Assembly: GCA_965541615.1 (NCBI GenBank)
Contig: CBEUCJ010000006.1
Location: 1 to 57,675 of the forward strand
From: an uncultured bacterium
Lineage (GTDB): Bacteria; Omnitrophota; Gorgyraeia; Duberdicusellales; CBEUCJ01
Length of the DNA stretch: 57,675 nt
Reading direction: 5' to 3'
Shown piece by piece: positions 809-30,752 of the stretch. Below the pieces are notes generated by a model, which ran no database searches, was not told the origin of the DNA, and worked only from the letters and a program-made list of their open reading frames with translations. The number at the start of each line of letters is the position of its first letter. The stretch's first letter is position 1. The position numbers and the translations under genes are program-made.

Positions 809-837
809 GAGAAAAATTTTATAACTTTTCATTTGTA

Positions 838-5903: not shown

Positions 5904-5942
5904 TTAAATAGTAACTTATAATTAGTTTGTTTTTAAATTTTA

Positions 5943-8662: not shown

Positions 8663-8733
8663 GAATGTAAAATAAATCTTTACATCCAAAGAAAATTCCG
8701 ATATAATTTTTTGCAAGTAATTTTTTGATAAAG

Positions 8734-9927: not shown

Positions 9928-9950
9928 ACTATTTTAGGAGGAGGTAAGAT

Positions 9951-16173: not shown

Positions 16174-16598
16174 GAAAAAAATTAAAATTAGGTGAGATTT
16201 TGTTGGAAGCAACTTCTTTAACCAAAGATCAATTAAAAGAAGCTCTCTATCTTCAAGCAAAAGAAAATATCTCTAAACCTTTAGGTGAGATTTTGGTAGA
16301 AAAAGGATATGTAAGTAAAGAAGATGTGGAGTTAGCTTTAGGAATTCAAGAAGGATACCCTTTTATTTCGGTAAAAAATTATAATTTAATTCCAGATGTA
16401 GTTAAAAAGGTTCCCAAAGAAGTAGCTTTAAGATATTTTATTTTGCCTTTGGATTTAATAGATAATATAATGACAGTAGCTGTACCTTCTATTTCTGAAG
16501 AGATTTTAAATAAAATTGAGGAGTTAGGTTTTAAAGTTAGAATTTTTTTAGGTAGGAAAGAAGAAATAAAAGAAGCTTTAAAAAAGTACTTTGACTGA
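16170..16598 (+). CDS. Stand-alone T2SSE_N / MshEN-type domain protein (predicted c-di-GMP receptor)
   Basis: Residues 6-29 (KLGEILLEATSLTKDQLKEALYLQ) and 37-60 (PLGEILVEKGYVSKEDVELALGIQ) match the tandem 24-residue MshEN motif. The remainder resembles the GspE/PilB N1 domain. GTGA overlap with the GGDEF gene. Confidence 0.75.
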   Translation: MRKKLKLGEILLEATSLTKDQLKEALYLQAKENISKPLGEILVEKGYVSKEDVELALGIQEGYPFISVKNYNLIPDVVKKVPKEVALRYFILPLDLIDNIMTVAVPSISEEILNKIEELGFKVRIFLGRKEEIKEALKKYFD

Positions 16599-17784
16599 AA
16601 GATTTAAACAAACTTCAATAGTAGATCTTACTCACCATCTTCTTGTTGAAGGAGTCAATAAAAGAGCAAGTGATATTTTAATTGAACCTTTAGATGATGA
16701 GTTACAAATAAGGTTTCGTATAGATGGTGTGCTTTCTAAATTTGCATCTTTGCCTTCTGAAATGCATTCAAAAATAATTACCAGAATAAAAGTAATGGCA
16801 GGTTTAGATATTTCTGAAAAAAGATTACCTCAAGATGGTAGTTTTAAAATGAAATTTCCAGGAAAAGAAGTAGATTTCAGAGTCTCAGTAGTTCCTTCAA
16901 GATTAGGAGAAAGAGTGGTCTTAAGAGTCTTGGATAAAGGAAGGCTTATTTTAGATATTAATAAATTAGGTTTAGATCCTTATTCTTTAACTTCTCTTAA
17001 AGAGAGTTTATTAAGACCTTATGGAATAATTTTAATATGTGGTCCTACAGGTTCTGGGAAGACTACAACTTTATATGCTTCCATAAAATATATTGATTCT
17101 GTAGAAAAAAATATTGTAACAGTAGAAGACCCTGTAGAATACCAACTCTATGGTATAAATCAGGTTCAGATAAATGAAGAGATAGGCTTAACTTTTCCTG
17201 CAGTTTTACGTTCTATTTTAAGACAAGACCCAGATGTAATCCTGGTAGGTGAAATTAGAGATTCTGAAACTGCTGAAATTGCTGTAAGAGCTGCTTTAAC
17301 AGGACATTTGGTTTTAAGCACTCTTCATACGACTACAGCCACAGGTGGAGTTATCAGACTGATAAATATGGGAATAGAACCTTATTTAATAAGTTCATCT
17401 TGCCTTTTAATAGCTTCGCAAAATTTAGTCAGATTATTATGTCCAGATTGTAAAAAGCCTCAACCTCTTCCAAAAGTAATTTCAGTTCAATTAGAGCAAT
17501 ATGGATACAAAAAAGAAGAGATCCCAGAAATAATTTACACAGCTAAAGGTTGCGAGAAATGTAATAATACTGGTTACTTTGGTAGAAGAGCTATTATGGA
17601 AGCTCTGATGTTATCTCCTGAAATTAGAGAATTAATAGAAAAAAATGCTCCTGAAAGAGAAATCAGAAAGAAAGCAAGGATGCAAGGAATGAGGAGCTTG
17701 AGAGAAAGAGGATATGAACTCTTAATGAAAGGTTTGACTTCTTTAGAGGAGGTAATAAGAGTAACTTCTGCTCAAGAAGTTTAA
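16591..17784 (+). CDS. PilB/GspE-family secretion ATPase lacking the N-terminal (N1/MshEN) domain
   Basis: Walker A GPTGSGKTT, Asp box, Walker B (DPDVILVGEIRD), His box (TGHLVLSTLHT) and the tetracysteine motif CPDC...GCEKC, which is typical of PilB/GspE and not of PilT. TTG start overlaps the stop of the MshEN ORF by 8 nt. Confidence 0.85.
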   Translation: MTERFKQTSIVDLTHHLLVEGVNKRASDILIEPLDDELQIRFRIDGVLSKFASLPSEMHSKIITRIKVMAGLDISEKRLPQDGSFKMKFPGKEVDFRVSVVPSRLGERVVLRVLDKGRLILDINKLGLDPYSLTSLKESLLRPYGIILICGPTGSGKTTTLYASIKYIDSVEKNIVTVEDPVEYQLYGINQVQINEEIGLTFPAVLRSILRQDPDVILVGEIRDSETAEIAVRAALTGHLVLSTLHTTTATGGVIRLINMGIEPYLISSSCLLIASQNLVRLLCPDCKKPQPLPKVISVQLEQYGYKKEEIPEIIYTAKGCEKCNNTGYFGRRAIMEALMLSPEIRELIEKNAPEREIRKKARMQGMRSLRERGYELLMKGLTSLEEVIRVTSAQEV

Positions 17785-17797: not shown

Positions 17798-19390
17798 ATG
17801 GAAAAGCATTTTTCTAAAAAAGATGAACTAAATTATATGCTTGAGATTTCAGAGAAGCTAAATATTCCTTTTATAAGAATCTCTCAATATCAAATCCCCA
17901 AAGAATTACTCAATCTCATTCCAGAAAAAATAGCCCGCAATTATAAAGTTATTCCTGTAGCTAAATTCGGTCCAGTACTCACTTTAGCTATGGTAAATCC
18001 TCTCAACTTAATGATTTTAGATGAGTTGCGTTATTTAATAGGATTAGAGATAACCCCTGTAGTAAGCACTTCTTCAGAAATCTTGGAAGCAATAGAAATT
18101 TATTATAAGCCTTCTTTTGAGATGAGTATAGAGAAGTTAAAAGAAGAAAGGACAAAAGAAATAACCATTGAGAAGACAACAGCTGAAGAAGAAGAGTTAG
18201 ATATCTATAAACTTACAGAGATGAGTTCACAAGAAAAGGTAGTAAACACCCTCAATAATATTATCTTGGAAGCTTTGAAATCTAAAGCGAGTGACATTCA
18301 TATAGAACCCTATCAAGAACATATCAGAATCCGTTACAGAATAGATGGTGTTTTGACAGAAAAAATGACTCTTCCAAAAGATATGCAAGATGCACTTTTA
18401 GCCAGGATAAAAATAATGTCTAAATTAGATATTACTCAAAGGAAAATTCCCCAAGATGGCAGATTTACTATAAATTTTGAAGACAGAAACATAGATTTTA
18501 GAGTTTCAATTTTACCTACATACTTTGGAGAAAAAGGAGTCTTAAGGATTTTAGATAAAGGAAGAATGAAGTTAGATTTAAGAAGTTTAGGTTTTTCTGA
18601 GCGTGCTTTTGAAATATACAAAGAAGCTATCTTTTCTCCTTTTGGTATCATATTAATCACAGGTCCTACAGGTTCTGGAAAATCAACTACTCTGTACTCT
18701 ATGCTAAATGAGTTAAATACACCTGAAAAAAACATAGTTACAATTGAAGATCCAATAGAATACCATCTGAAAGGTATTGCTCAAATCCAGATAAAGCCAG
18801 AAATCGGTTTAGACTTTGCTCAATGTTTAAGGAGTGTTTTAAGACAATCTCCAGATGTGATTATGGTAGGTGAGATAAGAGACTTTGAGACAGCAGACAT
18901 TGCTATGAAATCTGCTCTAACAGGACATTTGGTTCTAACTACCCTTCACACAAATGATGCTCCATCAGCTATAACCAGATTGTTAGATATGGGAATAGAG
19001 CCTTTTTTGATAGCAGGTGCTTTAAGAATGGTTTCAGCTCAAAGATTGGTAAGAAAGTTATGTGATTACTGTAAAGAGAGTTATATCATAGATAAAAGGA
19101 GTTTAGAAAAATTTGGTATCTTTGTTGATAAAGAAGAAGTCGTTTTATACAGAGCTACTGGTTGTAATGAGTGTGATAGAGTAGGTTATAAAGGAAGAGA
19201 AGCTATAGTAGAAGCGTTTTTAGTAGATGATACTTTAAGAGAGATGATAATTCAGAGAGCCCCTCTCTTAGATATTAAAAAGTATCTGAAATCAACAGGA
19301 ATGCATACTTTACGTGAAGATGGTTTTCTGAAAGCTTTAAAAGGAGCTACTTCCTTAGAAGAAGTAATAAGAGTAACTGCCCAATTTTGA
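17798..19390 (+). CDS. pilB: Full-length PilB/GspE-family type IV pilus / type II secretion ATPase
   Basis: T2SSE_N-like N-domain without the MshEN 24-mer motifs. Walker A GPTGSGKST, DPDVIMVGEIRD, TGHLVLTTLHT, and CDYC...GCNEC. A GspE (T2SS) assignment cannot be excluded. Confidence 0.85.
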   Translation: MEKHFSKKDELNYMLEISEKLNIPFIRISQYQIPKELLNLIPEKIARNYKVIPVAKFGPVLTLAMVNPLNLMILDELRYLIGLEITPVVSTSSEILEAIEIYYKPSFEMSIEKLKEERTKEITIEKTTAEEEELDIYKLTEMSSQEKVVNTLNNIILEALKSKASDIHIEPYQEHIRIRYRIDGVLTEKMTLPKDMQDALLARIKIMSKLDITQRKIPQDGRFTINFEDRNIDFRVSILPTYFGEKGVLRILDKGRMKLDLRSLGFSERAFEIYKEAIFSPFGIILITGPTGSGKSTTLYSMLNELNTPEKNIVTIEDPIEYHLKGIAQIQIKPEIGLDFAQCLRSVLRQSPDVIMVGEIRDFETADIAMKSALTGHLVLTTLHTNDAPSAITRLLDMGIEPFLIAGALRMVSAQRLVRKLCDYCKESYIIDKRSLEKFGIFVDKEEVVLYRATGCNECDRVGYKGREAIVEAFLVDDTLREMIIQRAPLLDIKKYLKSTGMHTLREDGFLKALKGATSLEEVIRVTAQF

Positions 19391-19446: not shown

Positions 19447-21342
19447 ATGAAACATAAATATCTTTTTTTTATTTTTTTATTCTTCTTTTTGAAATATGGA
19501 TTCTCTCAAGATCCAATATCTCCTAAAATTAGAGTAGAAGGTGATACTCAAATAAAGTTTGGAACTTTAAGATTAAAACCTGTAAAAGACACCCCTCCTG
19601 CTTCTCCTCAATTAGGAGATTTGTATTTTGATGGGACTTATCTTTATACTTGGGATGGCTCAAATTGGGTGCAAGTTTCAGAAGAAGGTTCACTTTTCTT
19701 TAATGATGCAGATAATTCCTTATATTTTTATGATGGAGCTCAGTGGCAAAAATTAGGAGAAGGTGAAGGTCCTAAAAAAATAGCTACAAGGATAGTAGCA
19801 GCATCTGACTCTCCAGATAAAAGCAGAGCAGACTATATCTGTGATGGAACAGATGACCAAGAAGAAATAAATCAAGCAATAATAGATGTGTATTTTAATC
19901 AAAATAATCCAGGTTTGGGAGGTTCAGTTTATTTATTAGCTGGAACTTACAATATAAGTGATAATACATCTATTACTTACACAAAACCAGATGGCACTAC
20001 TTTAACTTATTCAACTCCAGGCATCGTTTTATACTCTAATATCTCCTTAATAGGTGAAGGAGCAGGCACAGTTTTAAAAGCAGTTTCTGGCACAGCTTAC
20101 GATATAATAAATGTAATTGGCTCTTCTACAGAGTTTCTCAAAGGTGCTTTTATTTCCCAATTAAGAGTAGATGGAAATAAAGCTAATGTGTCAGGTACAC
20201 ACAATGGAATTTATTTTAAGTATGCTCAGAATTCAAAAATTACAAAAGTATGGATTGAAAATTGTTCAGGTTCTGCAATAAAATTGGAAAACTCTTCTTA
20301 TAATATTTTCTCTAAAAGTTTTCTATTAAATTGCTCAAAAGGAATTTACTTTGATTCAAGTTCTAATAACATCATTGCAAAAAATATAATTGAAAATATA
20401 CCTGAAGGAGCTATATACTTTGCTTCAACTTCAGATAGCAATTATAACATAATAGAAAGCAATATTATTTACAATTTAACAGGAACAGTTACTACAGGAG
20501 CTATAAGATTACATGGTGATTACAATATTTTTTTGGCAAACCATATTACAAGTTCTAAAATAGGAGGCGTTTTAATAGAAGGTGATTACAATCTTTTATA
20601 TTCAAATCTATTAAGTGGTTTAGAAAATTTCGGAGTCAATTTATCTGGTTCTACTTACAATCTTTTATCTTCAAACCACATTCATTTAGGTTCTTCTAAT
20701 TCAGCTTATGGGATAAAAATAGAGTCGAGTTCAGATTCTAATCTTTTAGTGGGAAATTATATTTGGGACCAAGAAGATGATTTTGCTTCACTTTCAATCC
20801 TTGATTCAGATAAACTCCTCATAGCTTCCAATTACATACTTTATCCTGGAATCCCTGATTATGGGATTGAAATAGATAGTCTTTCAAAAGATAACTATAT
20901 TGTAGGAAATCAAATAATAGATAGCAGCACAAATTCTCCAGGAAATATAAAGGACAATGGCACAAATACTCAGTATACTCAAAAAGAAAAAATGACAATA
21001 GAAAAGTATACTTTTCCTTATCCATCTATTTCTTCTCCTTATAAATTAGATACTTTTGTCAATGTACGGGCTCACAGTTATATAGCTTTTAATATTAACA
21101 GAGCAGGCACTTATACTGTTTATTTAACGACAGGCAAATCTCCAGGTGACATACTTATCTTAGAGAACAAGACCAATAATAAAAATAACTTTATTAGAGT
21201 CTATGATTATACTGATCCTGGTTCTCCTTCAGGAAATGCAATAAATTTAAGTGTTTCTTACATAGATTTAGGCAAAAATGATGTTTTAAAACTGATCTGG
21301 AATGGAACTCACTGGATTGAATTAGAACATATTGATAACTAA
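19447..21342 (+). CDS. Secreted right-handed parallel beta-helix (PbH1/NosD-like) repeat protein, paralog 1 of 4
   Basis: Signal peptide ending GFS/QD. N-terminal motif duplicated (GDLYFDGTYLYTWDGSNWVQV and NSLYFYDGAQWQKL). DYICDGTDDQEEINQAI and GGSVYLLAGTYN. Many N.I..N-type beta-helix turns. Conserved ~130-aa C-terminal module ending LKLIWNGTHWIELEHIDN. Confidence 0.75.
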   Translation: MKHKYLFFIFLFFFLKYGFSQDPISPKIRVEGDTQIKFGTLRLKPVKDTPPASPQLGDLYFDGTYLYTWDGSNWVQVSEEGSLFFNDADNSLYFYDGAQWQKLGEGEGPKKIATRIVAASDSPDKSRADYICDGTDDQEEINQAIIDVYFNQNNPGLGGSVYLLAGTYNISDNTSITYTKPDGTTLTYSTPGIVLYSNISLIGEGAGTVLKAVSGTAYDIINVIGSSTEFLKGAFISQLRVDGNKANVSGTHNGIYFKYAQNSKITKVWIENCSGSAIKLENSSYNIFSKSFLLNCSKGIYFDSSSNNIIAKNIIENIPEGAIYFASTSDSNYNIIESNIIYNLTGTVTTGAIRLHGDYNIFLANHITSSKIGGVLIEGDYNLLYSNLLSGLENFGVNLSGSTYNLLSSNHIHLGSSNSAYGIKIESSSDSNLLVGNYIWDQEDDFASLSILDSDKLLIASNYILYPGIPDYGIEIDSLSKDNYIVGNQIIDSSTNSPGNIKDNGTNTQYTQKEKMTIEKYTFPYPSISSPYKLDTFVNVRAHSYIAFNINRAGTYTVYLTTGKSPGDILILENKTNNKNNFIRVYDYTDPGSPSGNAINLSVSYIDLGKNDVLKLIWNGTHWIELEHIDN

Positions 21343-21344
21343 AA

Positions 21345-21854
21345 ATGATTTATGAAGAGGTTTTTAAAGAGTTAAATAAAAGAAAAGTTAAATATGTAGT
21401 AGTAGGAGGCATAGCTCTGGTCTTATATGGTATATTACGCTTTACTGCAGATTTGGATTTAGTAATTCATTTAGAAGAAAAAAATATAGATAGATTCTTC
21501 AAAGCGATCAAAAATTTAGGTTTTAAACCAAAAGTTCCTGTTACAGAAGAAGAATTTAAAGATAAGAAAAAGAGAGCTGAATGGATAAAAAAGAAAAATA
21601 TGATAGTATTCTCTTTTTATCATCCAAAAGACCCCCTTAAAATAATAGATGTCTTTATAAAAGAGCCAATAAAATTTGAATCTCTTTATAAACAGGCAAA
21701 AAAAATAAAAGTAAAAAAGATTACCATTCCTTTAGCTTCTCTCAAGCATCTAAGACAACTTAAAAAAAGAGCAAAAAGAGAAAAGGATTTTATAGATTTA
21801 ATTAAGCTTAAAGATTTTGAAAAAATAGAAAAAGATGAAAAGAAAAAAATTTAA
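21345..21854 (+). CDS. Small nucleotidyltransferase-fold protein (DUF-type, toxin-antitoxin-like)
   Basis: VKYVVVGGIALVLYGILRFTADLDLVI matches the GG...D.D minimal nucleotidyltransferase signature. C-terminal KREKDFIDLIKL. Confidence 0.55.
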   Translation: MIYEEVFKELNKRKVKYVVVGGIALVLYGILRFTADLDLVIHLEEKNIDRFFKAIKNLGFKPKVPVTEEEFKDKKKRAEWIKKKNMIVFSFYHPKDPLKIIDVFIKEPIKFESLYKQAKKIKVKKITIPLASLKHLRQLKKRAKREKDFIDLIKLKDFEKIEKDEKKKI

Positions 21855-21939
21855 AGAAGATCATTTAGATTTATATTTAAAGTCTACTTATCTGCAAAGA
21901 TTAAACTGGTTAGAAAAAGCTCATGAATTTGTTAAAAAG

Positions 21940-23637
21940 ATGATAAAACTGAGTAAAAAAATTAAAGACCTTAAAAAGTTACTTTTCATTTTATTATTTA
22001 TTTTTCTTTTTATCTCTTACTCTTTTTCTGCAAAACTCAATATACCTGACAGCTTAATCATAGAAAGAACTCTTTATTTGGTCCCTCAATCAACACCACC
22101 TACTTGTGATGCAGATTCAGAAGGAAAGATATACTATGATGCAAATGATAAGACTATAAAATACTGTGATGGTTCTGGTTGGAAAGATTTAAGAGGAAAA
22201 GAAAGATCAGTAGCTACAGTAATAGTTGCAGCTAAAGACTCCTTAGATACAGTATGTGATGCTTCAGGTTGTACAAATGAAAGAGCAGATTTTACTTGCG
22301 ATGGAATAAGTGACCAAGTAGAGATAAATCAGGCAATTAATTCTTTGCCTCCTGAAGGAGGGGCAGTCTATTTATTAGAAGGAACATATAATTTAACTGG
22401 TAGTATACATATTAACAAAGATAATGTTTCTTTAATTGGACAGGGAAGAGGAACAATACTGAAAATAAATGGTATAGTTATAAATGCAAGTGGAACTTCT
22501 AGTGATCCTTTAACAGGTATTTTGATTTCTAAATTGAAAATAGAAGGTGAGCTTAGGTTTAATTGTATAGAAAAATCTGCAATTAATAGTCTATGGATTA
22601 AAACTCTACATGATGTTCACTGCTCTAATTATAAACACAATATTTTCTCAGAAAATTTCTTAAAAACTTCTATGGGGAGTTTATGGGTAAATTCTTCTTC
22701 TTCAAATATTTTTGCAAATAATATATTTGAAGGTTTAGAGTTATGGCTTACAGCTAATAGTAATAATAACATAGTAGAAAGTAATATAATTTATAATGTG
22801 CCATTTTATATGGGAGTTGGAATTATATATCTTCAAGATAAAGGAAATATTATTATGGGAAATAGTATACATAATTGTCCAGCAGAACCGACCGGAATAG
22901 GAGTTCGGTTTAATGCAAGTAACAATGTTATCTGCGCTAATAGTATATTTGATGTTAAATTATATGGAATACTTCTTAGCTCATCCCCAGAAGAAAACCT
23001 TGTATCTTCAAATCTAATTCATCTCCTCTCTTCAAATAATGCAAAAGGAATTGATTTAGCTTTTGACAAAAATCTTGTTACAGCAAATCTTATAAAAGAA
23101 GAAGCAAGTTGTAATGCTTTACACTTAAACTCTTTATCTAATGAAAATCTTATTACTTTCAATTATATAGATTCTTCTTATACTTCAGGATATGCAGTTG
23201 ATAATGATGGTTCAGATAACTATTTTGTAGGAAATCAGATAGTTGCACCTAATGCTTTAAAATTTTCTGATGATGGCACAAATACTCAACACATTCAAAA
23301 AGAAAAAATAACACTTGAACGCCAGACTGTAACTTTATCTTCTTCACCTGCAACTTTAGAAGTAGCTACTACTCCTCGTGGGTATGTAGTTTTTGATACA
23401 GGAGGTTCAAACATTCAATTAGGAGACCCAGCAAACAATATTAATGCAATAAATGATGGAAAAGCTCAAGGAGATTTACTCATCTTAGAAGGACCTTCAT
23501 CAGGTTCAGTCACAATTAAAAATGGAGCAAATGTTAAGTTAAAAGGAGGTTTAGATAGAACTTTACAATCTGAAGATACTCTGACTCTAATCTGGAATGG
23601 TTCTGATTGGATTGAAATAGCTTACAGCGATAATTGA
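21940..23637 (+). CDS. Secreted beta-helix repeat protein, paralog 2 of 4
   Basis: The ORF is open from ATG 21835, but a typical signal peptide (MIKLSKKIKDLKKLLFILLFIFLFISYSFS/AK) begins at ATG 21940. Family motifs: GKIYYDANDKTIKYCDGSGW, FTCDGISDQVEINQAI, GGAVYLLEGTYN, and the C-terminal GDLLILEG...LTLIWNGSDWIEIAYSDN. Confidence 0.75.
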   Translation: MIKLSKKIKDLKKLLFILLFIFLFISYSFSAKLNIPDSLIIERTLYLVPQSTPPTCDADSEGKIYYDANDKTIKYCDGSGWKDLRGKERSVATVIVAAKDSLDTVCDASGCTNERADFTCDGISDQVEINQAINSLPPEGGAVYLLEGTYNLTGSIHINKDNVSLIGQGRGTILKINGIVINASGTSSDPLTGILISKLKIEGELRFNCIEKSAINSLWIKTLHDVHCSNYKHNIFSENFLKTSMGSLWVNSSSSNIFANNIFEGLELWLTANSNNNIVESNIIYNVPFYMGVGIIYLQDKGNIIMGNSIHNCPAEPTGIGVRFNASNNVICANSIFDVKLYGILLSSSPEENLVSSNLIHLLSSNNAKGIDLAFDKNLVTANLIKEEASCNALHLNSLSNENLITFNYIDSSYTSGYAVDNDGSDNYFVGNQIVAPNALKFSDDGTNTQHIQKEKITLERQTVTLSSSPATLEVATTPRGYVVFDTGGSNIQLGDPANNINAINDGKAQGDLLILEGPSSGSVTIKNGANVKLKGGLDRTLQSEDTLTLIWNGSDWIEIAYSDN

Positions 23638-23647
23638 AAATAAAACC

Positions 23648-23805
23648 TTGGACACATCCGGAGTGTCCAAAGAACAAAGGTTGAGATGGGTGCCCAAAGA
23701 ACAAGATTGAGATTTGAGGAAATAAAGAAAGTTGTAAGTGAGAAACAAAAAAGGACAGTCCTTAAATGTTACACTTCTGGGGTGTCCAAAAAAACAAGGT
23801 TGAAA
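23648..23805. promoter_or_regulatory. Intergenic palindrome plus direct-repeat cluster upstream of, or overlapping, the start of paralog 3
   Basis: An 8-bp-stem palindrome TTGGACAC-atccgga-GTGTCCAA at 23648-23670. Three copies of GTG(T/C)CCAAA(G/A)AACAAG(G/A)TTGA(G/A)A at 23663-23686, 23690-23712 and 23782-23805. A further palindrome AAGGACAGTCCTT near 23749-23761. Confidence 0.4.
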
Positions 23806-25485
23806 AAAACGATCTTTAAAAAAATTAATTTATTCTTTCTTTTATTTTATTTTCTGCTTTCTCTTTCTTTCTCCCAACAAGACAACCTCTGTATAAAAGG
23901 CACCCTTCAAACTCAAACTCTAACTATAAAAGGTTCAGATACTCTGCCTGCTTCTCCTACAAAAGGTGAAATCTACTACAAAACAGATGAAGATACAATC
24001 TACTTTTATGATGGCTCACAATGGCAGAAAATAGGAGAAGGTCAAGACAAAACAGTAGCTTCTCAAATAGTAAGAACCCAAAACTCAAGATATGATGCAG
24101 ACAAAACCTGTGATGGAACAGATGATCAACAAGAAATTCAACAGGCAATAAATGATTTGGGAAATGATAAAGGTGCAGTTTATTTATTAGAGGGAGAGTA
24201 TAATCTTTCAGCTCTTGTCAGATTAGATTCACAAAATAGTCCTAATTATGATGGAATAAGTGATTTTAATAAGTCTATAATTGGAACAGGTGCAGGGAGT
24301 TTATTAAAAACAGATAGCCAAACGAACATAATTGAACTTTATTATAGTTGGGGAACTAAAAGAAGAAACCTTCTTTCTCAATTTAGAATGGATGGAAATA
24401 AAGTAGGATACGAGGGAATATATGCAATGTATCTTGCTCACAGTTTAATAGACAATGTTTGGGCAAGTAAGTTTTACTGTATAGGAATTAATTTAGGGAA
24501 TGCAAAAAAAAGTATACTTACTTCCTCTTTTGCTGAACAATGTAATTCTCGTTGGTTTTCTTCTGGAATGGGAGCTTATCCATGGGCAGGTTTTAGCTCT
24601 TCAATTCTTGCTAACAATATTAGTATAAGAAATTCACATGGAATTTGTACAGCAAAAGGGATATACAGTAGTATTATTTCTTTTAATATTGCTGGATATA
24701 TTTCTCATATACACAGTGCTAGTATGTATAATAATATCTTTATAGGAAATATTTTTTCTTTAAGCCATCAACAACCTGGGCATTGTATAGTGGTAGGAAA
24801 TAAGGGAGGAAATATAGGGCTTTTTATTGCATCCTTTAATATGGTTTCTTCCTGCAATGTAGCATCTATTGGTTTTGGCTGGTGGTGGTTGGATGATCAT
24901 TTTAATATAATATGGGGAAATATAGCTTCAAGAGACACGGGAACTTTAATTGGAATGAAAAGACATAAATATGGGTTAATTTCTTCTAATTTATGTTTTT
25001 GTACATCAGCTACTATTGGAAGTTGGCGTTGGTGTTGGCGTGGAATTGCTATTACAAACGCATATGGAGGTATTAGTACAGGTGTATATTTTGTAGGTAA
25101 TCTCATTGAAGGGGGCCCATTTTCTCAACAAATTAAAGTCGAAGATCAGGGTACTTCCACCTTCTACACAGACAAACTCAAACTCACTCTTGAAGGAAAA
25201 CCCCTTGATATCTCTAATTCAACTTATACTCTGGATATGACCACAAACCCAAGAACTTACTTTCAATTAAACCCTCAAGTTGATACTACTCTTTCTCTAC
25301 AAGATGGAAAATCACCTGGAGACCTACTCATCTTAGAAAATACAAGTTCTTCTTATACTATTACTATCTCTGAATCAAGAAATATAGAATTAGAAAAAAA
25401 CACTTTAACTTTAGGAGAAAATGACACCTTAATGCTCTTATGGGATGGAACAAAATGGATACAAACAGCTTATGCTGATAATTGA
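23686..25485 (+). CDS. Secreted beta-helix-family protein, paralog 3 of 4 (mosaic partner of paralog 4)
   Basis: ATG 23686 has AAGG 5 nt upstream but gives a 48-aa basic N-region. TTG 23800 would give a canonical signal peptide (MKKTIFKKINLFFLLFYFLLSLSFS/QQ). The N-terminal ~118 codons and C-terminal ~111 codons match paralog 4 with a single synonymous difference. The core is divergent and Trp/Cys-rich (GWWWLDD, SWRWCWRG). Confidence 0.7.
   Translation: MGAQRTRLRFEEIKKVVSEKQKRTVLKCYTSGVSKKTRLKKTIFKKINLFFLLFYFLLSLSFSQQDNLCIKGTLQTQTLTIKGSDTLPASPTKGEIYYKTDEDTIYFYDGSQWQKIGEGQDKTVASQIVRTQNSRYDADKTCDGTDDQQEIQQAINDLGNDKGAVYLLEGEYNLSALVRLDSQNSPNYDGISDFNKSIIGTGAGSLLKTDSQTNIIELYYSWGTKRRNLLSQFRMDGNKVGYEGIYAMYLAHSLIDNVWASKFYCIGINLGNAKKSILTSSFAEQCNSRWFSSGMGAYPWAGFSSSILANNISIRNSHGICTAKGIYSSIISFNIAGYISHIHSASMYNNIFIGNIFSLSHQQPGHCIVVGNKGGNIGLFIASFNMVSSCNVASIGFGWWWLDDHFNIIWGNIASRDTGTLIGMKRHKYGLISSNLCFCTSATIGSWRWCWRGIAITNAYGGISTGVYFVGNLIEGGPFSQQIKVEDQGTSTFYTDKLKLTLEGKPLDISNSTYTLDMTTNPRTYFQLNPQVDTTLSLQDGKSPGDLLILENTSSSYTITISESRNIELEKNTLTLGENDTLMLLWDGTKWIQTAYADN
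23848..24201 (+). repeat. Repeat block A, copy 1 (5' end of paralog 3)
   Basis: 354 bp matching 25641-25994 at a constant offset of 1793. By eye there is one mismatch (24180 T versus 25973 G, synonymous Val). Confidence 0.9.
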
Positions 25486-25492
25486 TTATTAT
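25154..25492 (+). repeat. Repeat block B, copy 1 (3' end of paralog 3 plus 7 nt past the stop)
   Basis: 339 bp matching 26989-27327 at a constant offset of 1835. No mismatch seen by eye, and the encoded 111 aa are identical. Confidence 0.9.
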
Positions 25493-25522
25493 TTAAAATA
25501 AAATTTTTTATCCCAAACCATG

Positions 25523-25556
25523 TGGACACCTCCGGAGTGTCCAAGGATGTTGAAAG
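25523..25556. promoter_or_regulatory. Second copy of the GGACAC/GTGTCC palindrome element, between paralogs 3 and 4
   Basis: TGGACAC-ctccgga-GTGTCCA at 25523-25543, followed by a shortened version of the CCAAGG..GTTGAAAG motif (25537-25556). Confidence 0.4.
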
Positions 25557-25580
25557 TTTTTAAAACTGAGAAGAAGAATA

Positions 25581-27320
25581 ATGATTACAAAAATAAAGAA
25601 AAATAAACTGAAAATAGGAAATATTTTATTCATTATTTTTATTTTCTGTCCCTCTCTTTCTTTCTCCCAACAAGACAACCTCTGTATAAAAGGCACCCTT
25701 CAAACTCAAACTCTAACTATAAAAGGTTCAGATACTCTGCCTGCTTCTCCTACAAAAGGTGAAATCTACTACAAAACAGATGAAGATACAATCTACTTTT
25801 ATGATGGCTCACAATGGCAGAAAATAGGAGAAGGTCAAGACAAAACAGTAGCTTCTCAAATAGTAAGAACCCAAAACTCAAGATATGATGCAGACAAAAC
25901 CTGTGATGGAACAGATGATCAACAAGAAATTCAACAGGCAATAAATGATTTGGGAAATGATAAAGGTGCAGTGTATTTATTAGAGGGAGAGTATTTGGTG
26001 AGTAATGCGATACAGTTAGAATACGGAGCTGGTTTTACTTTTACCCCTGATAGAATAGGAGATAGTTATAAGTCTATAATAGGCACAGGAGCTGGGAGTA
26101 TCTTAAAAGTAAATGCAGATGCAGATTTTTGTGTTTTTAAACTTTATTACGGAAGAAAAGGATGCGCTCTTATGAGTAATTTTCAAATCGATGGAAATAA
26201 AGCTTCAGTAACAGGTAAGAACTGTGGAATTAGTCTTGGGGGTTGGTATCAAGTTGGGTTTAAATACTCTATAGTTGATAATGTATGGATAAAAGATCTC
26301 ACCTCTTGGGGGATTACTCTTGTCAATAGGTTAAGTATTTATACTGATAATTATATTTTATCTGGAATTGATTGTAAAGATGCCCTTAGATTTGGCTCGG
26401 GTAGTAAAGGATTGAGTATATTTTCCAACAATTTTATTACCCCTCAGATTCATTTCTATGGATATGGAGGAGGTAGTATGCAGTGTGATATAATTTCTTT
26501 AAATATTTTTCCTTCTGGCAATATTGATCTTTATGGTTATTGTGCATATTGTAGTCGTCACATTCTTTTAGGAAATATTGTACCTGGAGGTAATATTGTA
26601 ACTAGAGGTATTAATCCTCGTTGCAATCATTTAGTTGTGTGTAGCAATCTCCTTAGTGGAGGAGGAGGAGGAATTAATTACTCAGGTGGGAAAAGCATGA
26701 TTTCAAATAATTTAATCAAAGAAAGTAGTTTCCCTGCTATTAACTATAATGGAGCTGAGTTAGTTTTTAGTAACATGATTTCTGAAAGTGCTACAGGCGG
26801 CTTTTGGGCAGACTGCGGAATATACGTAACAGCTCCGTCTCTTATTTCCTCAAATTATATTTATGATTCTGTTTGTAATGGTGGTTATTACTATGGGATT
26901 ATTATCTGGCATCCATTTTTAAAAAATATTTATATTGTAGGTAATTATATTCAAGGAAATTATACACATCCTATTTATGATAGACCTTCTTCCACCTTCT
27001 ACACAGACAAACTCAAACTCACTCTTGAAGGAAAACCCCTTGATATCTCTAATTCAACTTATACTCTGGATATGACCACAAACCCAAGAACTTACTTTCA
27101 ATTAAACCCTCAAGTTGATACTACTCTTTCTCTACAAGATGGAAAATCACCTGGAGACCTACTCATCTTAGAAAATACAAGTTCTTCTTATACTATTACT
27201 ATCTCTGAATCAAGAAATATAGAATTAGAAAAAAACACTTTAACTTTAGGAGAAAATGACACCTTAATGCTCTTATGGGATGGAACAAAATGGATACAAA
27301 CAGCTTATGCTGATAATTGA
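25581..27320 (+). CDS. Secreted beta-helix repeat protein, paralog 4 of 4 (mosaic partner of paralog 3)
   Basis: Signal peptide (...FCPSLSFS/QQDN). Ends match paralog 3 apart from one synonymous base. The core is divergent, with PbH1-like turns and a GGGGGINYSGG stretch. C-terminus ...LMLLWDGTKWIQTAYADN. Confidence 0.75.
   Translation: MITKIKKNKLKIGNILFIIFIFCPSLSFSQQDNLCIKGTLQTQTLTIKGSDTLPASPTKGEIYYKTDEDTIYFYDGSQWQKIGEGQDKTVASQIVRTQNSRYDADKTCDGTDDQQEIQQAINDLGNDKGAVYLLEGEYLVSNAIQLEYGAGFTFTPDRIGDSYKSIIGTGAGSILKVNADADFCVFKLYYGRKGCALMSNFQIDGNKASVTGKNCGISLGGWYQVGFKYSIVDNVWIKDLTSWGITLVNRLSIYTDNYILSGIDCKDALRFGSGSKGLSIFSNNFITPQIHFYGYGGGSMQCDIISLNIFPSGNIDLYGYCAYCSRHILLGNIVPGGNIVTRGINPRCNHLVVCSNLLSGGGGGINYSGGKSMISNNLIKESSFPAINYNGAELVFSNMISESATGGFWADCGIYVTAPSLISSNYIYDSVCNGGYYYGIIIWHPFLKNIYIVGNYIQGNYTHPIYDRPSSTFYTDKLKLTLEGKPLDISNSTYTLDMTTNPRTYFQLNPQVDTTLSLQDGKSPGDLLILENTSSSYTITISESRNIELEKNTLTLGENDTLMLLWDGTKWIQTAYADN
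25641..25994 (+). repeat. Repeat block A, copy 2 (5' end of paralog 4)
   Basis: See copy 1. Identity stops abruptly after GAGGGAGAGTAT. Confidence 0.9.
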
Positions 27321-27327
27321 TTACCAT
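26989..27327 (+). repeat. Repeat block B, copy 2 (3' end of paralog 4)
   Basis: See copy 1. Identity starts at CTTCCACCTTCTACACAGAC. Confidence 0.9.
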
Positions 27328-27379
27328 TGTTTAAAATAAAAATAACTGATAGAATAGGTTAACTAACTAAAAATTTAAA

Positions 27380-27757
27380 ATGCAAGCTGATTTTTTAAAA
27401 GAAAGAGCAGAAAAATTCCTTAAGAACGCAAAAGATTTGTTTAATAAAGAAGAGTATGATTTATCTGCTTTTAATTTAGAACAAGCCTGCCAACTTTTTT
27501 TAAAATACTATATCTTTCTTAAAATAGGTGATTTCCCTAAAACTCATTATTTAAAAAGATTAATAAGAGAAGTAGGTAAAGTCTATGAAAAAGAAGAAGA
27601 TGTAGAAAAATTAATTGAAGAAAATATAAGTGTGGTCTCTAACCTTGAAGACGCTTACATTGGAGCAAGGTATCTACCTTATATTTTTGAGAAAAAACAG
27701 GTAGAAAATATGATGGTATTTGTAGATAAGTTATTAAATTTTCTTAAAAAACTATGA
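27380..27757 (+). CDS. HEPN domain protein (PF05168-like)
   Basis: YDLSAFNLEQACQLFLKYYI..., PKTHYLKRLIREV and EDAYIGARY match the classic small HEPN signature. ATGA overlap with the downstream nucleotidyltransferase gene. Confidence 0.75.
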   Translation: MQADFLKERAEKFLKNAKDLFNKEEYDLSAFNLEQACQLFLKYYIFLKIGDFPKTHYLKRLIREVGKVYEKEEDVEKLIEENISVVSNLEDAYIGARYLPYIFEKKQVENMMVFVDKLLNFLKKL

Positions 27758-28101
27758 AGACTCTTACAGATATCTTATTAGAAGAAGCAAAAGAAAATAA
27801 AAAGTATTTCTGTGATTATTTAAAATATTTAAAAATCGTTAAAGAAGAGGTAAATAAGATTTTAAAAGGAGCCAAAGTATATGTTTTTGGTTCAGTAGTA
27901 AAAGGTAATTTCAATTTTGCAAGTGATATAGATGTGTTGATCGTATGTGAGAATTTAGATCCTTCAAAAAGAACTTTGATTAAAACTCTCATCTATAAAA
28001 AAATAGGTTTCTTTTCTCCTTTTGAAATCCATGTAATCACAAAAGAAGAGTATCTTTGTTGGTATAAAAATTTCATAAAAGAAGATGTAAAAGAGATTTA
28101 A
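27754..28101 (+). CDS. Minimal nucleotidyltransferase (MNT, NTP_transf_2), partner of the HEPN protein
   Basis: VYVFGSVVKGNFNFASDIDVLIV matches the GS-x(n)-SD.D Pol-beta-type nucleotidyltransferase motif. Confidence 0.8.
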   Translation: MKTLTDILLEEAKENKKYFCDYLKYLKIVKEEVNKILKGAKVYVFGSVVKGNFNFASDIDVLIVCENLDPSKRTLIKTLIYKKIGFFSPFEIHVITKEEYLCWYKNFIKEDVKEI

Positions 28102-28166: not shown

Positions 28167-29366
28167 ATGCCAGTATTTGTTTATAAAGCAAAAGATTCTG
28201 AAGGAAAGACCACCAAATCTATAATCGAAGCTCCAAGTTATCAGGAAGCTCTATCAAAGTTAAGAGAAGAATTTTCTGCAGTTTTACTTTTAAAAGAGAC
28301 AAAAAGAAAATTTGCAAAGAGAATAAAGAAAGTAAGTTTAGATAGTTTAGCTCAATTCTCAAGAGAGTTAGCTACAATGGTAGGAGCAGGCACTCCTTTA
28401 GTAAAAAGTTTAACGATATTAGGAAATCAATTTAAAGAAAAGACTTTATCAGAAATTGCCCATGATTTAGCAAAATATATTGAAGCAGGAAACAGTTTTG
28501 CAGATGGGTTAAAAAAATACCCCAAAGTTTTCTCTCCTCTCTATATAAATACTGTAGTAGCTGGTGAAACCAGTGGAACTTTAAAAGATGTCTTAGAAAG
28601 ATTAGCTAATTATTTGGAGAATACATCTATTCTTTTAAGAAAAATAAAGACTGCCATGATCTATCCAACAGCAGTAGTTATCGTAGCAATAATTATTACT
28701 TCTTTTTTAGTCTTTAAAATCATACCTGGATTCAAAGAAATATTTGAGAATTTAGGAGGAGAGTTACCTTTACCTACAAGAATAGTTATAAAAGTAAGTG
28801 ATACTTTTAAGAAATATTTCTTTTTCATTGCAGGATTTTTTATTATAAGTTTTTTAATCTTTATTAGACTTATTAACACTTCTCGGGGCAGATTTTTATT
28901 CGATAAATTTAAATTAAAAATCCCTGTATTAGGTCCTCTTTTTCAAAAAGTGGCCATCTCGCGTTTTAGTAGAACTTTAGGGATACTTTTAAGGAGTGGT
29001 GTGCCTATTTTAGAAGCATTAAAAATTGTAAGTAAAGCTGTGGGAAACAAAGTATTAGAAGAATCTATTTTAAAGACTTTAGAAGAGGTAAGAAGAGGAA
29101 AGACTTTAGCTCCTAATTTAGAGAAAAGTAAAATATTTCCTCCAATGGTAATAGAGATGATAAGTGTAGGTGAAGAGAGTGGAGAGTTAGAGAATATGTT
29201 AGAGAATATAGCTGATAGCTATGATACTCAAGTAGATATAGCCACAAACAATCTGGTCTCTCTTATAGAGCCTTTTATCATCATTTTCTTAGGAGTCGTA
29301 ATTGGAGGAATAGTAGTTAGTATGTTTTTACCTATCTTAAAGATCACTCAACTCTTAGGAAGATGA
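28167..29366 (+). CDS. pilC: PilC/GspF-family inner-membrane platform protein
   Basis: 399 aa with two T2SSF-type repeats (SRELATMVGAGTPLVKSL... and SRTLGILLRSGVPILEAL...) and three TM regions. GspF cannot be excluded. Confidence 0.88.
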   Translation: MPVFVYKAKDSEGKTTKSIIEAPSYQEALSKLREEFSAVLLLKETKRKFAKRIKKVSLDSLAQFSRELATMVGAGTPLVKSLTILGNQFKEKTLSEIAHDLAKYIEAGNSFADGLKKYPKVFSPLYINTVVAGETSGTLKDVLERLANYLENTSILLRKIKTAMIYPTAVVIVAIIITSFLVFKIIPGFKEIFENLGGELPLPTRIVIKVSDTFKKYFFFIAGFFIISFLIFIRLINTSRGRFLFDKFKLKIPVLGPLFQKVAISRFSRTLGILLRSGVPILEALKIVSKAVGNKVLEESILKTLEEVRRGKTLAPNLEKSKIFPPMVIEMISVGEESGELENMLENIADSYDTQVDIATNNLVSLIEPFIIIFLGVVIGGIVVSMFLPILKITQLLGR

Positions 29367-30712: not shown

Positions 30713-30752
30713 TCTTGAATATTTTAGATTAATAGATTATTTTTAAAGTGAG

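What the first reader, a model, noticed from the sequence alone, without database searches (positions are those of the whole stretch)
19447..27320. Array of four paralogous secreted beta-helix proteins with conserved N- and C-terminal modules, inserted between pilB and pilC
**Features shared by all four proteins (631, ~565, ~600 and 579 aa):**
- a Sec signal peptide ending FS/(Q or A);
- an N-terminal P..(A/T)(S/C)P..G.(I/L)Y(Y/F).....(I/L)Y.(W/Y/C)DGS.W motif, which is duplicated in paralog 1;
- CDG(T/I)(D/S)DQ.EI.QAI followed by GG(A/S)VYLL(A/E)G(T/E)YN;
- a variable PbH1-like repeat core;
- a ~130-aa C-terminal module (GT(N/S)T.(Y/H/F).(Q/D)K(E/L)K.T(I/L)E ... G(K/.)(S/A).GD(I/L)LILE(N/G) ... 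D(V/T)L.L(I/L)W(N/D)G..WI(E/Q)) that always ends in Asp-Asn at the stop.

**Interpretation:** conserved ends around a variable centre suggest a common export, anchoring or assembly signal carrying diversified binding or enzymatic surfaces. I cannot assign the end modules to named families.
Basis: partly seen in the sequence, partly recalled or inferred. Interest (0 to 1): 0.7.

Follow-up and report, generated by a model that had tools for sequence, protein, structure and literature searches.

The report
Tailspike-like protein array in pilus operon
Four neighbouring genes in an uncultured Omnitrophota bacterium encode secreted proteins built like the sugar-cutting tail spikes of bacteriophages, and relatives of these genes sit inside the type IV pilus gene cluster in every related genome examined, which suggests that these tiny bacteria use them with the pilus to reach or digest the sugar coat of a host, prey or particle.

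Summary
Four same-strand paralogues (631, 565/600, 561/599 and 579 aa) lie between pilB and pilC and share signal-peptide-like N-termini and the reported motifs, though the strict N-motif regex fails.

The end modules can be named:
- The C-terminal module is Pfam PF25692, the phage depolymerase C-terminal beta-sandwich.
- The CDGxDDQ...GGxVYLLxGxY block is the N-cap of a pectate-lyase-type beta-helix.
- The N-terminal G.IYY...Y.YDG..W motif gives only sub-threshold tail-fibre-type hits.

AlphaFold models of P1 and P4 are beta-helices. Their nearest structures are alginate epimerases/lyases and phage tailspikes.

The family is essentially confined to Omnitrophota. In 16 distinct loci, arrays (usually three copies) lie inside the pilus/secretion cluster, although their position in it varies. 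That argues for functional coupling.

P3 and P4 are 98.6-100% identical in DNA at both ends but cannot be aligned in the centre. A 94%-identical strain carries a third centre.

My reading: these are Sec-exported glycan-targeting spikes, exported or displayed by the pilus machine, and their conserved ends double as recombination handles. Enzymatic activity, trimer state and pilus dependence were not tested. I file it as a new variant of a known kind.

The parts
19447..21342 (+). P1, 631 aa. Signal-peptide-like N-terminus (aa 1-20), duplicated N-motif (aa 57-74 and 81-100), helix cap (aa 111-170), beta-helix (aa ~159-505), C-terminal beta-sandwich (aa 501-631).
   Evidence: ORF. Pfam Beta_helix 4.8e-19 and NosD 2.2e-18. 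AlphaFold pLDDT 82.7. Foldseek hits to AlgE4 and phage tailspikes. Motifs.
21940..23637 (+). P2, 565 aa from ATG 21940 (the ORF is open from 21835). Same architecture as P1. C-module is aa 440-565 (nt 23257-23634).
   Evidence: Pfam Phage_depo_C 1.3e-14 and Beta_helix 4.1e-9.
23800..25485 (+). P3, 561 aa from TTG 23800 (the ORF is open from ATG 23686). Trp/Cys-rich divergent centre. C-module is nt 25132-25482.
   Evidence: Pfam Phage_depo_C 2e-10, with no Beta_helix hit. Family profile 2e-167.
25581..27320 (+). P4, 579 aa. Its ends are identical to those of P3. Its centre (nt 25998-26990) has no relative other than itself in 5.8 billion proteins. C-module is nt 26967-27317.
   Evidence: Pfam Phage_depo_C 1.3e-10. 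AlphaFold beta-helix, pLDDT 75, C-module pLDDT 91-97. Foldseek AlgE6/AlgE4/Sf6 tailspike.
23842..24201 (+). 5' recombination handle of P3, 98.6% identical in DNA to 25633-25994 in P4.
   Evidence: blastn. Repeat family D2.
25633..25994 (+). 5' recombination handle of P4, the partner of 23842-24201.
25154..25503 (+). 3' handle of P3. It is 100% identical to P4 over the last 332 nt of the gene, and the identity runs about 20 nt past the stop.
26989..27341 (+). 3' handle of P4, the partner of 25154-25503.
21345..21854 (+). 169-aa nucleotidyltransferase-like ORF inserted between P1 and P2. It is absent from a 93%-identical strain.
   Evidence: Weak Pfam hits to DUF6036, AbiEii and DUF2204. Indel relative to L088.
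27380..28101 (+). HEPN (27380-27757) plus nucleotidyltransferase (27754-28101) pair between the array and pilC. Probably a toxin-antitoxin-type insert.
   Evidence: Pfam HEPN 6.8e-27 and NTP_transf_2 3.7e-12.
17798..19390 (+). PilB-type assembly ATPase (MshEN + T2SSE), immediately upstream of P1 with a 56-nt gap.
   Evidence: Pfam.
16170..17784 (+). Second PilB/GspE-type ATPase, split into an MshEN-only ORF (16170-16598) and a 397-aa catalytic ORF with a CxxC...CxxC motif (16591-17784).
   Evidence: Pfam. Sequence. Syntenic in other loci.
12172..16173 (+). 1333-aa GGDEF-AAA_16-HEAT protein at the head of the cluster. Presumed c-di-GMP input to the MshEN domains.
   Evidence: Pfam. Synteny.
28167..29366 (+). 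PilC/GspF platform protein, downstream of the array.
   Evidence: Pfam T2SSF 1e-62.
29363..32038 (+). Pilin genes: Kelch-propeller pilin (29363-30712), 177-aa pilin (30753-31286) and a 251-aa pilin-like ORF (31283-32038).
   Evidence: Pfam Kelch and N_methyl. Always co-clustered with the arrays.

Best explanation
**What it is.** The four genes encode Sec-exported proteins with the architecture of a phage tailspike or depolymerase. Each has a short N-terminal beta-hairpin motif, a capped right-handed beta-helix of the pectate-lyase type, and a C-terminal Phage_depo_C beta-sandwich. They are conserved accessory genes of the Omnitrophota type IV pilus / type II secretion-like machine.

**Proposed mechanism.**
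1. They are co-transcribed with pilB and pilC.
2. They cross the inner membrane by Sec, and the FS|Q signal peptide is cleaved.
3. They fold in the periplasm.
4. The growing pilus or pseudopilus carries them out through the secretin. They then either stay on the filament or cell surface or are released.
5. Each paralogue's beta-helix surface binds, and probably cleaves, a different polysaccharide of a host or prey envelope or of environmental glycan.

**Role of the ends.** The conserved ends are the folding, assembly or docking modules common to all copies. Because they are kept near-identical, they also act as homologous-recombination handles. Centres are swapped, duplicated or lost through them.

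**Shown here:** fold, domain identities, conserved gene neighbourhood, mosaic recombination pattern, chromosomal (non-phage) context.

**Inferred:** export route, oligomeric state, glycan cleavage, target.
For: **Fold and domains**
- Pfam finds Beta_helix/NosD and Phage_depo_C.
- The AlphaFold models have pLDDT 82.7 (P1) and 75 (P4).
- Foldseek best matches are AlgE4/AlgE6, an alginate epimerase/lyase, the CBA120 TSP3, Sf6, HK620 and Det7 tailspikes, RbmB, GH87, and phage tail-fibre or depolymerase models.

**Signal-peptide-like N-termini** occur in all four proteins and across the family.

**Neighbourhood**
- Arrays of 2-4 full-length members lie inside the pilus cluster in these loci: the window, L001, L003/L018, L005/6, L007/8/15, L009, L010, L011, L012, L013, L017, L019, L021, L170, L173 and L174.
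- They take at least four different positions there: pilB-[array]-pilC, pilC-[array]-Kelch pilin, pilins-[array]-secretin, and divergent next to pilins or secretin.
- In L005 the genes are packed with gaps from -4 to +23 nt between pilB and pilC.
- No complete cluster without an array was seen when loci were seeded from the Kelch pilin instead.

**Mosaic pattern**
- P3, P4 and P0031 share ~100% identical ends and centres of 30% identity or less.
- A 94%-identical strain has one gene with a third centre where the window has P3 + P4.

**Context**
- The surrounding genes are housekeeping genes (the mraZ-ftsA division/cell-wall cluster, AddAB-like helicase-nuclease), not phage genes.

**Precedent**
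- TcpF and CofJ are Sec-exported proteins encoded in type IVb pilus operons. They dock by an N-terminal segment on the tip minor pilin and are secreted by the pilus (PMC6048534, PMC9565799, PMC10120004).
Against: - No catalytic residues could be identified. The only invariant core residues are an Asn ladder, one Ser, one Trp and one Asp. The AlgE YG(F/I)DPH(D/E) motif is absent.
- Nothing tested here shows secretion through the pilus machine. Trimerisation could not be modelled.
- The window's own cluster lacks pilM/N/O and a secretin nearby.
- The N-module is no better conserved than the core at family level, 33% against 33%. That weakens the idea of a conserved N-terminal docking signal.
- One Omnitrophota locus (L016) shows an array next to glycoside-hydrolase-like genes with no pilus gene in the available flank. 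A non-Omnitrophota relative (L014) sits among housekeeping genes.
Confidence: 0.5

Rival explanations
1. They are non-catalytic beta-helix adhesins or lectins. The proteins bind host or substrate glycans but do not cleave them, and the array provides alternative adhesion specificities displayed with the pilus.
For: - No conserved acidic catalytic pair or triad occurs across the family.
- The P3 and P4 centres are Trp/Cys/Gly-rich and very divergent.
- The C-module also ends collagen- and YadA-type fibres, which are adhesive.
- Beta-helix adhesins exist (titles found: PMC3718772, PMC8746771).
Against: - The closest structures are overwhelmingly glycan-processing enzymes and enzymatic tailspikes.
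- Catalytic residues are not conserved between tailspike families either, so their absence from a family-wide alignment is weak evidence.
Confidence: 0.2
2. They remodel the cell's own exopolysaccharide, in the manner of WceF, RbmB or AlgE. The enzymes trim or modify the cell's own c-di-GMP-controlled matrix so that pili can extend or cells can disperse.
For: - The best PDB matches are the alginate epimerases AlgE4/6 and an epimerase/lyase. RbmB, a Vibrio biofilm lyase, also matches.
- The cluster is headed by a GGDEF protein, and both ATPases carry MshEN c-di-GMP-binding domains.
- A chromosomal tailspike-like EPS enzyme has precedent in Pantoea WceF (PMC7949094, title and abstract).
Against: - No polysaccharide-synthesis genes lie in the clusters.
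- Strain-level replacement of centres and an orphan centre fit diverse or changing external targets better than one self-polymer.
- The epimerase motif is absent.
Confidence: 0.15
3. There is no functional link to the pilus. The array is a variable island that repeatedly lands in a permissive spot of a long operon. It encodes free polysaccharide-foraging enzymes exported by another route.
For: - The array is an insertion hot spot. It holds the HEPN/nucleotidyltransferase pair, a nucleotidyltransferase indel, a Y1 transposase in L086 and 23S_rRNA_IVP genes in L001.
- Sugar ABC transporter, GH2-like, GH72-like, ROK and LacI genes lie upstream in the window.
- In L016 the array abuts homologous GH-like genes.
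Against: - Co-location persists across deep divergence (30-35% identity between members) and across rearrangements of gene order.
- The copies are positional orthologues.
- The genes are tightly packed and partly overlapping in L005.
Confidence: 0.1
4. They are remnants of a prophage or tailocin whose tailspike genes were left in the chromosome.
For: - The architecture is tailspike-like, with a Phage_depo_C domain.
- There are weak PHROG tail-fibre hits.
- BFVD matches are to tail fibres and tailspikes.
Against: - No other phage gene occurs in 57.7 kb.
- tblastn against 50,697 phage genomes finds only the helix cap and nothing for the C-module.
- None of 80 IMG/VR loci has the C-module.
- Sec signal peptides are not a feature of virion tailspikes (own knowledge).
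- GC content matches the flanks.
Confidence: 0.03

Closest known systems
Phage tailspike / capsule depolymerases (e.g. CBA120 TSP1-4, Sf6, HK620, Det7; Klebsiella and Acinetobacter phage depolymerases)
   Same: - A right-handed beta-helix flanked by a small N-terminal module and a C-terminal beta-sandwich (PF25692).
- Several divergent paralogues side by side, as in multi-tailspike phages.
- Conserved termini with exchanged receptor-binding centres.
   Different: - Sec signal peptides.
- Chromosomal location in a pilus operon with no virion genes.
- Full-length relatives found only in Omnitrophota genomes, not in phage collections.
- Trimer state and activity untested.
TcpF (Vibrio cholerae TCP) and CofJ (ETEC CFA/III): type IVb-pilus-operon-encoded secreted proteins
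   Same: - Sec-exported soluble proteins encoded inside the pilus operon.
- The published mechanism is docking of an N-terminal segment on the tip minor pilin, followed by export by pilus growth (PMC6048534, PMC9565799, PMC10120004).
- Here too there is an operon-encoded Sec-type protein, whose mature N-terminus is modelled as disordered (P1 aa 21-42, pLDDT < 50).
   Different: - No sequence or fold relation.
- The machine here is PilM/PilO/secretin type with a Kelch-propeller pilin, not a type IVb pilus.
- There are several large beta-helix paralogues rather than one small protein.
- Docking was not tested.
Type II secretion substrates such as the Dickeya/Pectobacterium Out-secreted pectate lyases (own knowledge)
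   Same: Sec-dependent beta-helix polysaccharide-degrading enzymes expelled through a secretin by a pseudopilus driven by a GspE/GspF pair.
   Different: - Out substrates are scattered in the genome and share no conserved terminal modules.
- The cluster here has PilM/PilO-type rather than GspL/M/C components.
Pantoea stewartii WceF (PMC7949094)
   Same: A chromosomally encoded bacterial protein with a phage-tailspike-like fold that acts on a polysaccharide.
   Different: - WceF is a single gene described as modifying the cell's own biofilm glycan.
- It is not an array, is not pilus-linked, and has no cassette-like centres.
Bdellovibrio bacteriovorus mosaic adhesive trimer (MAT) fibre proteins (PMC10769870)
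   Same: - A predatory bacterium uses a family of chimeric fibre proteins to recognise and invade diverse bacterial hosts (title).
- Omnitrophota are proposed predators or parasites with type IVa pili (PMC10066038).
   Different: - No homology to those fibres was shown here.
- This family is built on a capped beta-helix.
- No pilus-operon location for the Bdellovibrio fibres was seen in the material I read (title and first lines of the abstract only).
AlgE4/AlgE6 mannuronan C5-epimerase A-modules (2pyg, 5lw3)
   Same: - Best sequence-profile and structural match for the cap plus helix: hmmsearch 5.4e-7 and Foldseek 6e-12.
- Shared GDGxxDD...AI...GGxVYLPxGxY cap.
   Different: - The catalytic YG(F/I)DPH(D/E) motif is absent.
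- There are no RTX R-modules.
- The proteins have Sec signal peptides rather than type I secretion.

Membership tests
Pfam PF25692 Phage_depo_C (phage depolymerase C-terminal beta-sandwich) | Whole-protein score at or above the curated cut-off of 25 bits | tested here: met
   P2 scores 54.8, P3 41.4 and P4 42.1 bits. P1 alone is below the cut-off at 17.8 bits. P1 aligns column for column with the others and matches the family C-module profile at 8e-36.
Right-handed parallel beta-helix / pectate-lyase superfamily (PF13229, PF05048, PF12708) | Pfam match above the cut-off, or a beta-helix fold | tested here: met
   P1 (69 bits) and P2 (36.7 bits) pass PF13229. P3 and P4 do not. The P4 model is a beta-helix with Foldseek E 3.5e-8 to AlgE6. 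P3 was not modelled. It is only 25-29% identical to P1 and P4 in the core.
Phage tailspike / virion-borne depolymerase | Encoded in a phage genome next to tail or baseplate genes, with an N-terminal virion-anchor domain | tested here: not met
   The window carries housekeeping and pilus genes only. There are no full-length relatives in INPHARED or IMG/VR.
Phage tailspike / virion-borne depolymerase | Homotrimer with inter-subunit or intra-subunit glycanase site | not testable with these tools
   Only single-chain AlphaFold2 was available. The only hint is faint precomputed hits to PF26696 'PTL_trimer'.
AlgE-type mannuronan C5-epimerase | Catalytic YG(F/I)DPH(D/E) motif in the helix | tested here: not met
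   No DPH occurs in any paralogue. The aligned segment is unrelated.
Pilus- or T2SS-dependent exoprotein (works like TcpF/CofJ or Out substrates) | Sec-type signal peptide and no prepilin leader | tested here: met
   The pattern is a Lys-rich n-region, a hydrophobic core and FS|Q/A in 4/4 proteins. No N_methyl hit was found. This is inspection only; no predictor was run.
Pilus- or T2SS-dependent exoprotein (works like TcpF/CofJ or Out substrates) | Conserved location inside the pilus/secretion gene cluster | tested here: met
   16 distinct loci and four arrangements.
Pilus- or T2SS-dependent exoprotein (works like TcpF/CofJ or Out substrates) | Export requires the pilus ATPase, platform or secretin | not testable with these tools
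   This needs genetics or reconstitution.
Type IV pilin / pseudopilin | Class III signal peptide with the N-terminal methylation motif (PF07963) | tested here: not met
   Absent from P1-P4. Present in the neighbouring ORFs 29363-30712 and 30753-31286.
Type IX secretion C-terminal sorting domain | Match to a curated family model for that sorting domain at the C-terminus | tested here: not met
   The NCBIfam scan of P1-P4 returned no C-terminal sorting-domain model. Pfam assigns the C-terminus to PF25692 instead.

The most novel reading that the evidence does not exclude
The pilus is armed like a phage tail. The three (here four) paralogous spikes dock through their shared terminal modules on the tip complex formed by the Kelch-propeller pilin and minor pilins. 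They may do so as homo- or heterotrimers. Pilus extension would then present a set of glycan-cutting spikes that recognise and drill through the envelope or capsule of the host or prey cell. Recombination at the conserved handles would retarget the device. This would be a cellular, pilus-borne analogue of the multi-tailspike phage adsorption apparatus in ultra-small episymbiotic or predatory bacteria.
Probability: 0.17. Interest if true: 0.85.

Novelty: new variant of a known kind. Interest (0 to 1): 0.6.

Why it matters
Omnitrophota are widespread, uncultured, ultra-small bacteria thought to live as predators or parasites. Their type IVa pili are proposed attachment devices (PMC10066038), and secretion/pilus loci have been tied to cell-wall attack (bioRxiv 10.1101/2023.11.21.568195).

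How they recognise and breach a partner's surface is unknown. A conserved, rapidly diversifying set of tailspike-like proteins wired into the pilus operon gives that question a concrete molecular handle:
- The proteins are small enough to express.
- Their glycan targets could reveal host range.
- The identical-ends, swapped-centre pattern offers a natural example of cassette retargeting outside phages.

The papers I searched did not describe this gene family or its pilus linkage.

Tried and rejected
**Searches that led nowhere**
1. The word-indexed protein search with the C-module profile returned only two fragments. The exhaustive search was needed instead.
2. A PDB sequence search with the C-module profile gave only antibody noise at E 0.2-0.6.
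3. A PDB search with the N-module profile hit designed PQQ-like propellers. Each repeat scored only ~5.8 bits, and significance came from summing nine identical repeats. I treat this as a shared beta-meander pattern, not homology.
4. The N-motif hits to DUF2793 (E 0.003, 17.9 bits against a cut-off of 27) and to PHROG tail-fibre families (E 1e-3 to 5e-6 over 30-60 residues) are sub-threshold leads only.
5. PF26696 'PTL_trimer' appears only as 'faint' precomputed hits. It is absent from the local Pfam copy and from the paper library, so I do not rely on it.
6. The search with the P4 centre found only itself.
7. The promoter/terminator scan found fewer promoter-like sites than the shuffles and no clear terminators on the + strand between the genes. 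It was uninformative.

**Mechanisms considered and rejected**
- A diversity-generating retroelement or invertible-cassette mechanism. No reverse transcriptase was found among the ORFs scanned, and the array has only two weak inverted repeats.
- Lipoprotein. No lipobox Cys follows the hydrophobic core.
- Pilin, type IX sorting domain, AlgE-type epimerase and prophage remnant. See the membership table.

Full report
**1. What is in the sequence**

The interval 19447-27320 holds four + strand ORFs of 631, 600, 599 and 579 aa. They are mutually 35-39% identical overall, and each matches a profile of the wider family at E 1e-165 or better.

For P2 and P3 the longest ORFs carry about 35 hydrophilic residues in front of an otherwise typical signal peptide. 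An ATG at 21940 gives a 565-aa P2 and a TTG at 23800 gives a 561-aa P3, both with normal n-regions. All four then read Lys-rich n-region, hydrophobic core, then (G/S)FS followed by Q or A.

- The cap motif, the three C-terminal motifs and the terminal Asp-Asn are present in 3-4 of 4 copies.
- The N-motif exactly as written fits none. A relaxed form fits all four, and fits P1 twice.

- a 169-aa nucleotidyltransferase-like ORF (21345-21854);
- a HEPN/nucleotidyltransferase pair (27380-28101).

The flanking genes are a PilB-type ATPase (MshEN + T2SSE) and a PilC/GspF platform protein.

**2. Naming the modules**

- **C-terminal module.** The last ~120 residues are Pfam PF25692, 'phage depolymerase C-terminal beta-sandwich'. 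P2-P4 score above the curated cut-off. P1 is below it but is clearly homologous by alignment.
- **Cap block.** The CDGxDDQxEIxQAI...GGxVYLLxGxY block aligns to the N-cap of the AlgE4 helix, GDGVSDDRASIQAAIDAAYAAGGGTVYLPAGEY. It is the only part with tblastn matches in cultured phages, namely actinophage tailspikes and minor tail proteins.
- **N-terminal motif.** The G.IYY...Y.YDG..W motif has only sub-threshold similarity to DUF2793 and to PHROG tail-fibre families.
- **Models.** AlphaFold2 models of P1 (pLDDT 82.7) and P4 (75.1) show a disordered mature N-terminus, two or one small beta-meanders, a capping helix, a long right-handed beta-helix and a confident C-terminal sandwich.
- **Structural neighbours.** Foldseek places both models nearest to AlgE4/AlgE6, an alginate epimerase/lyase, the CBA120 TSP3, Sf6, HK620 and Det7 tailspikes, RbmB, GH87 and inulin fructotransferases. 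In BFVD the nearest are tail-fibre, tailspike and depolymerase models.
- **Catalytic motif.** The AlgE catalytic motif is absent.

**3. Who has it**

Word-indexed and pattern-based searches find full-length relatives almost only in Omnitrophota metagenome-assembled genomes. Several of these carry automatic 'Planctomycetia' or 'Elusimicrobia' labels.

Partial matches (cap + helix, sometimes the N-motif) occur in very large proteins of Patescibacteria and in DPANN archaea and Chloroflexota.

An exhaustive profile search with the C-module alone finds 2674 representative clusters.
- The top ~100 are 550-660-aa proteins with the module at the very C-terminus.
- Weaker hits carry the sandwich after collagen repeats or YadA-head repeats, or as tandem copies.

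The sandwich is therefore a general terminal domain of fibrous, probably trimeric, surface or virion proteins. None of 80 IMG/VR loci selected through the cap carries it.

**4. Genomic context**

The window is chromosomal. Sugar-uptake and GH-like genes, ROK and LacI regulators lie upstream. The mraZ-ftsA division/cell-wall cluster, an AddAB-like helicase-nuclease and other housekeeping genes lie downstream. GC content is uniform at about 0.26-0.34.

I screened every fetched locus with profiles of the family and with the window's pilus proteins. Arrays of 2-4 full-length members lie inside the same cluster in these loci: the window, L001, L003/L018, L005/6, L007/8/15, L009, L010, L011, L012, L013, L017, L019, L021, L170, L173 and L174.

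The cluster reads: GGDEF protein, MshEN ORF, 397-aa ATPase, PilB, PilC, Kelch-propeller pilin, two pilin-like genes, PilO-like, secretin, PilM.

The array's position differs between lineages:
- pilB-[array]-pilC;
- pilC-[array]-Kelch pilin;
- pilins-[array]-secretin;
- divergent, next to pilins or secretin.

Linkage has therefore survived rearrangement. In L005 the three genes are packed between pilB and pilC with gaps of -4 to +23 nt.

Loci seeded independently from the Kelch pilin gave four more clusters with arrays. Four others are truncated exactly where an array would be expected. No complete cluster without an array was seen.

There are two exceptions. L016 has an array beside GH-like genes, with its upstream side cut by the contig end. 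L014 is a membrane-anchored relative in a non-Omnitrophota genome.

Three copies is the usual number. A neighbour-joining tree groups copies by position across related genomes. The triplet is therefore old, and the window's fourth copy is recent.

**5. The mosaic**

- P3 and P4 are 98.6% identical over 362 nt at the 5' end and 100% identical over the last 332 nt. The identity runs past the stop codon.
- The ~950-nt centres do not align, and the encoded centres are about 29% identical.
- P0031 comes from a 94%-identical strain (L086). It has the same ends and a third centre. It stands as a single gene, followed by a Y1 transposase, where the window has P3 + P4.
- The P4 centre has no relative other than itself among 5.8 billion proteins at word-index sensitivity.
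- A 93%-identical strain (L088) lacks the nucleotidyltransferase gene. A 77%-identical relative (L001) has three copies, the remnants of a fourth and two 23S_rRNA_IVP genes.

The array is therefore a strain-variable hot spot, and recombination at near-identical terminal segments is the simplest source of new combinations.

**6. Interpretation**

*Shown:* fold, domain identity, Sec-type N-termini (by inspection), conserved operonic linkage to the pilus/secretion machine, and the recombination pattern.

*Inferred:* the proteins leave the cell with the help of that machine and act on polysaccharides.

The inference rests on three points:
- guilt by association across deep divergence;
- the known ability of type II secretion systems and some type IV pili to export Sec-dependent periplasmic proteins. 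TcpF and CofJ are operon-encoded examples that dock on the tip minor pilin (PMC6048534, PMC9565799, PMC10120004);
- the glycan-processing nature of nearly all structural neighbours.

Both ATPases carry the CxxC...CxxC motif typical of assembly ATPases (PilB/GspE type, own knowledge). No PilT-type retraction ATPase lies in the cluster. A pseudopilus-like, secretion-oriented mode is therefore as plausible as a retractile pilus.

Omnitrophota are thought to be predators or parasites that use type IVa pili for attachment (PMC10066038). Pilus-coupled spikes with several specificities would fit that lifestyle. Foraging on environmental polysaccharide, supported by the sugar-uptake genes upstream, cannot be separated from it with these data.

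The conserved ends look like ordinary tailspike assembly modules rather than a dedicated sorting signal. At family level the N-module is no better conserved than the core.

**7. Novelty and verdict**

The components are known: the beta-helix, the PF25692 domain, pilus-dependent exoproteins, and modular exchange in tailspikes. What I did not find described in the papers searched is their combination:
- a phylum-restricted family of Sec-exported tailspike-like proteins;
- kept as a small array inside the type IV pilus/T2SS-like operon;
- with centres exchanged between identical handles.

I rate it a new variant of a known kind, with interest 0.6. The most novel reading that my evidence does not exclude, a pilus tip armed with phage-like spikes, has a probability of about 0.17.

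Noticed in passing
window 12172-17784: The cluster starts with a 1333-aa GGDEF-AAA_16-HEAT protein. It is followed by a PilB/GspE-type ATPase split into an MshEN-only ORF (16170-16598) that overlaps a 397-aa tetracysteine catalytic ORF (16591-17784). The trio is syntenic in L001, L009, L012, L019, L021, L172 and L202. This suggests c-di-GMP control through two MshEN domains. No PilT-type ATPase lies in the cluster.
   Followed up: partly
window 29363-30712: This is a pilin with an N-terminal methylation motif fused to a 5-6-blade Kelch propeller and an Asp-rich C-terminal motif (GEDxNLNGxLDxGEDxNxNGxLDSP). It is present in every cluster that holds an array and is a candidate tip adhesin or docking partner.
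   Followed up: partly
window 21345-21854 and 27380-28101; L086 2833-3684; L001 14032-14922: Small defence- or mobile-type genes interrupt the array. They are a nucleotidyltransferase-like ORF (absent from the 93%-identical strain L088), a HEPN/nucleotidyltransferase pair, a Y1 (IS200/IS605-type) transposase at the equivalent site in L086, and two 23S_rRNA_IVP genes in L001.
   Followed up: partly
window 23649-23669 and 25523-25543: The hairpin TGGACACNTCCGGAGTGTCCA occurs exactly twice in the window (0 expected by chance), once in each intergenic gap upstream of P3 and P4. Folding energies are -13.2 and -13.1 kcal/mol, and only the first stands out from shuffles (z -3.1). It is not followed by a T-run on the + strand, and its role is unknown. 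It seems to be part of the duplicated unit.
   Followed up: partly
window 65-12106; L016 3906-8396: Upstream of the pilus cluster lie a sugar ABC transporter, a TPR + GH2-like protein (2497-4770), a GH72-like protein (5943-7217), and ROK and LacI regulators. In L016 an array abuts ORFs whose N-terminal sequences resemble those GH-like proteins. This was judged by eye and not aligned.
   Followed up: no
L022 1970-22813; L023 1-8889; L024; L042; L045: The N-motif plus the capped beta-helix also occur inside very large ORFs of Patescibacteria (about 6,900 aa in L022) and in DPANN archaea (Woesearchaeota, Aenigmatarchaeota). These are other ultra-small, host-dependent lineages.
   Followed up: no
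L011 and L013 (both from MAG JAKLQT01): One Omnitrophota bin carries two separate three-copy arrays, each next to its own pilC. The copies pair up across the two loci in the tree. This is either two pilus clusters in one genome or two strains in one bin.
   Followed up: no
window 25998-26990: The central 331 aa of P4 has no detectable relative other than itself among 5.8 billion clustered proteins at word-index sensitivity. The P3 centre is unusually rich in Trp (14 in the ORF) and Cys (11).
   Followed up: partly
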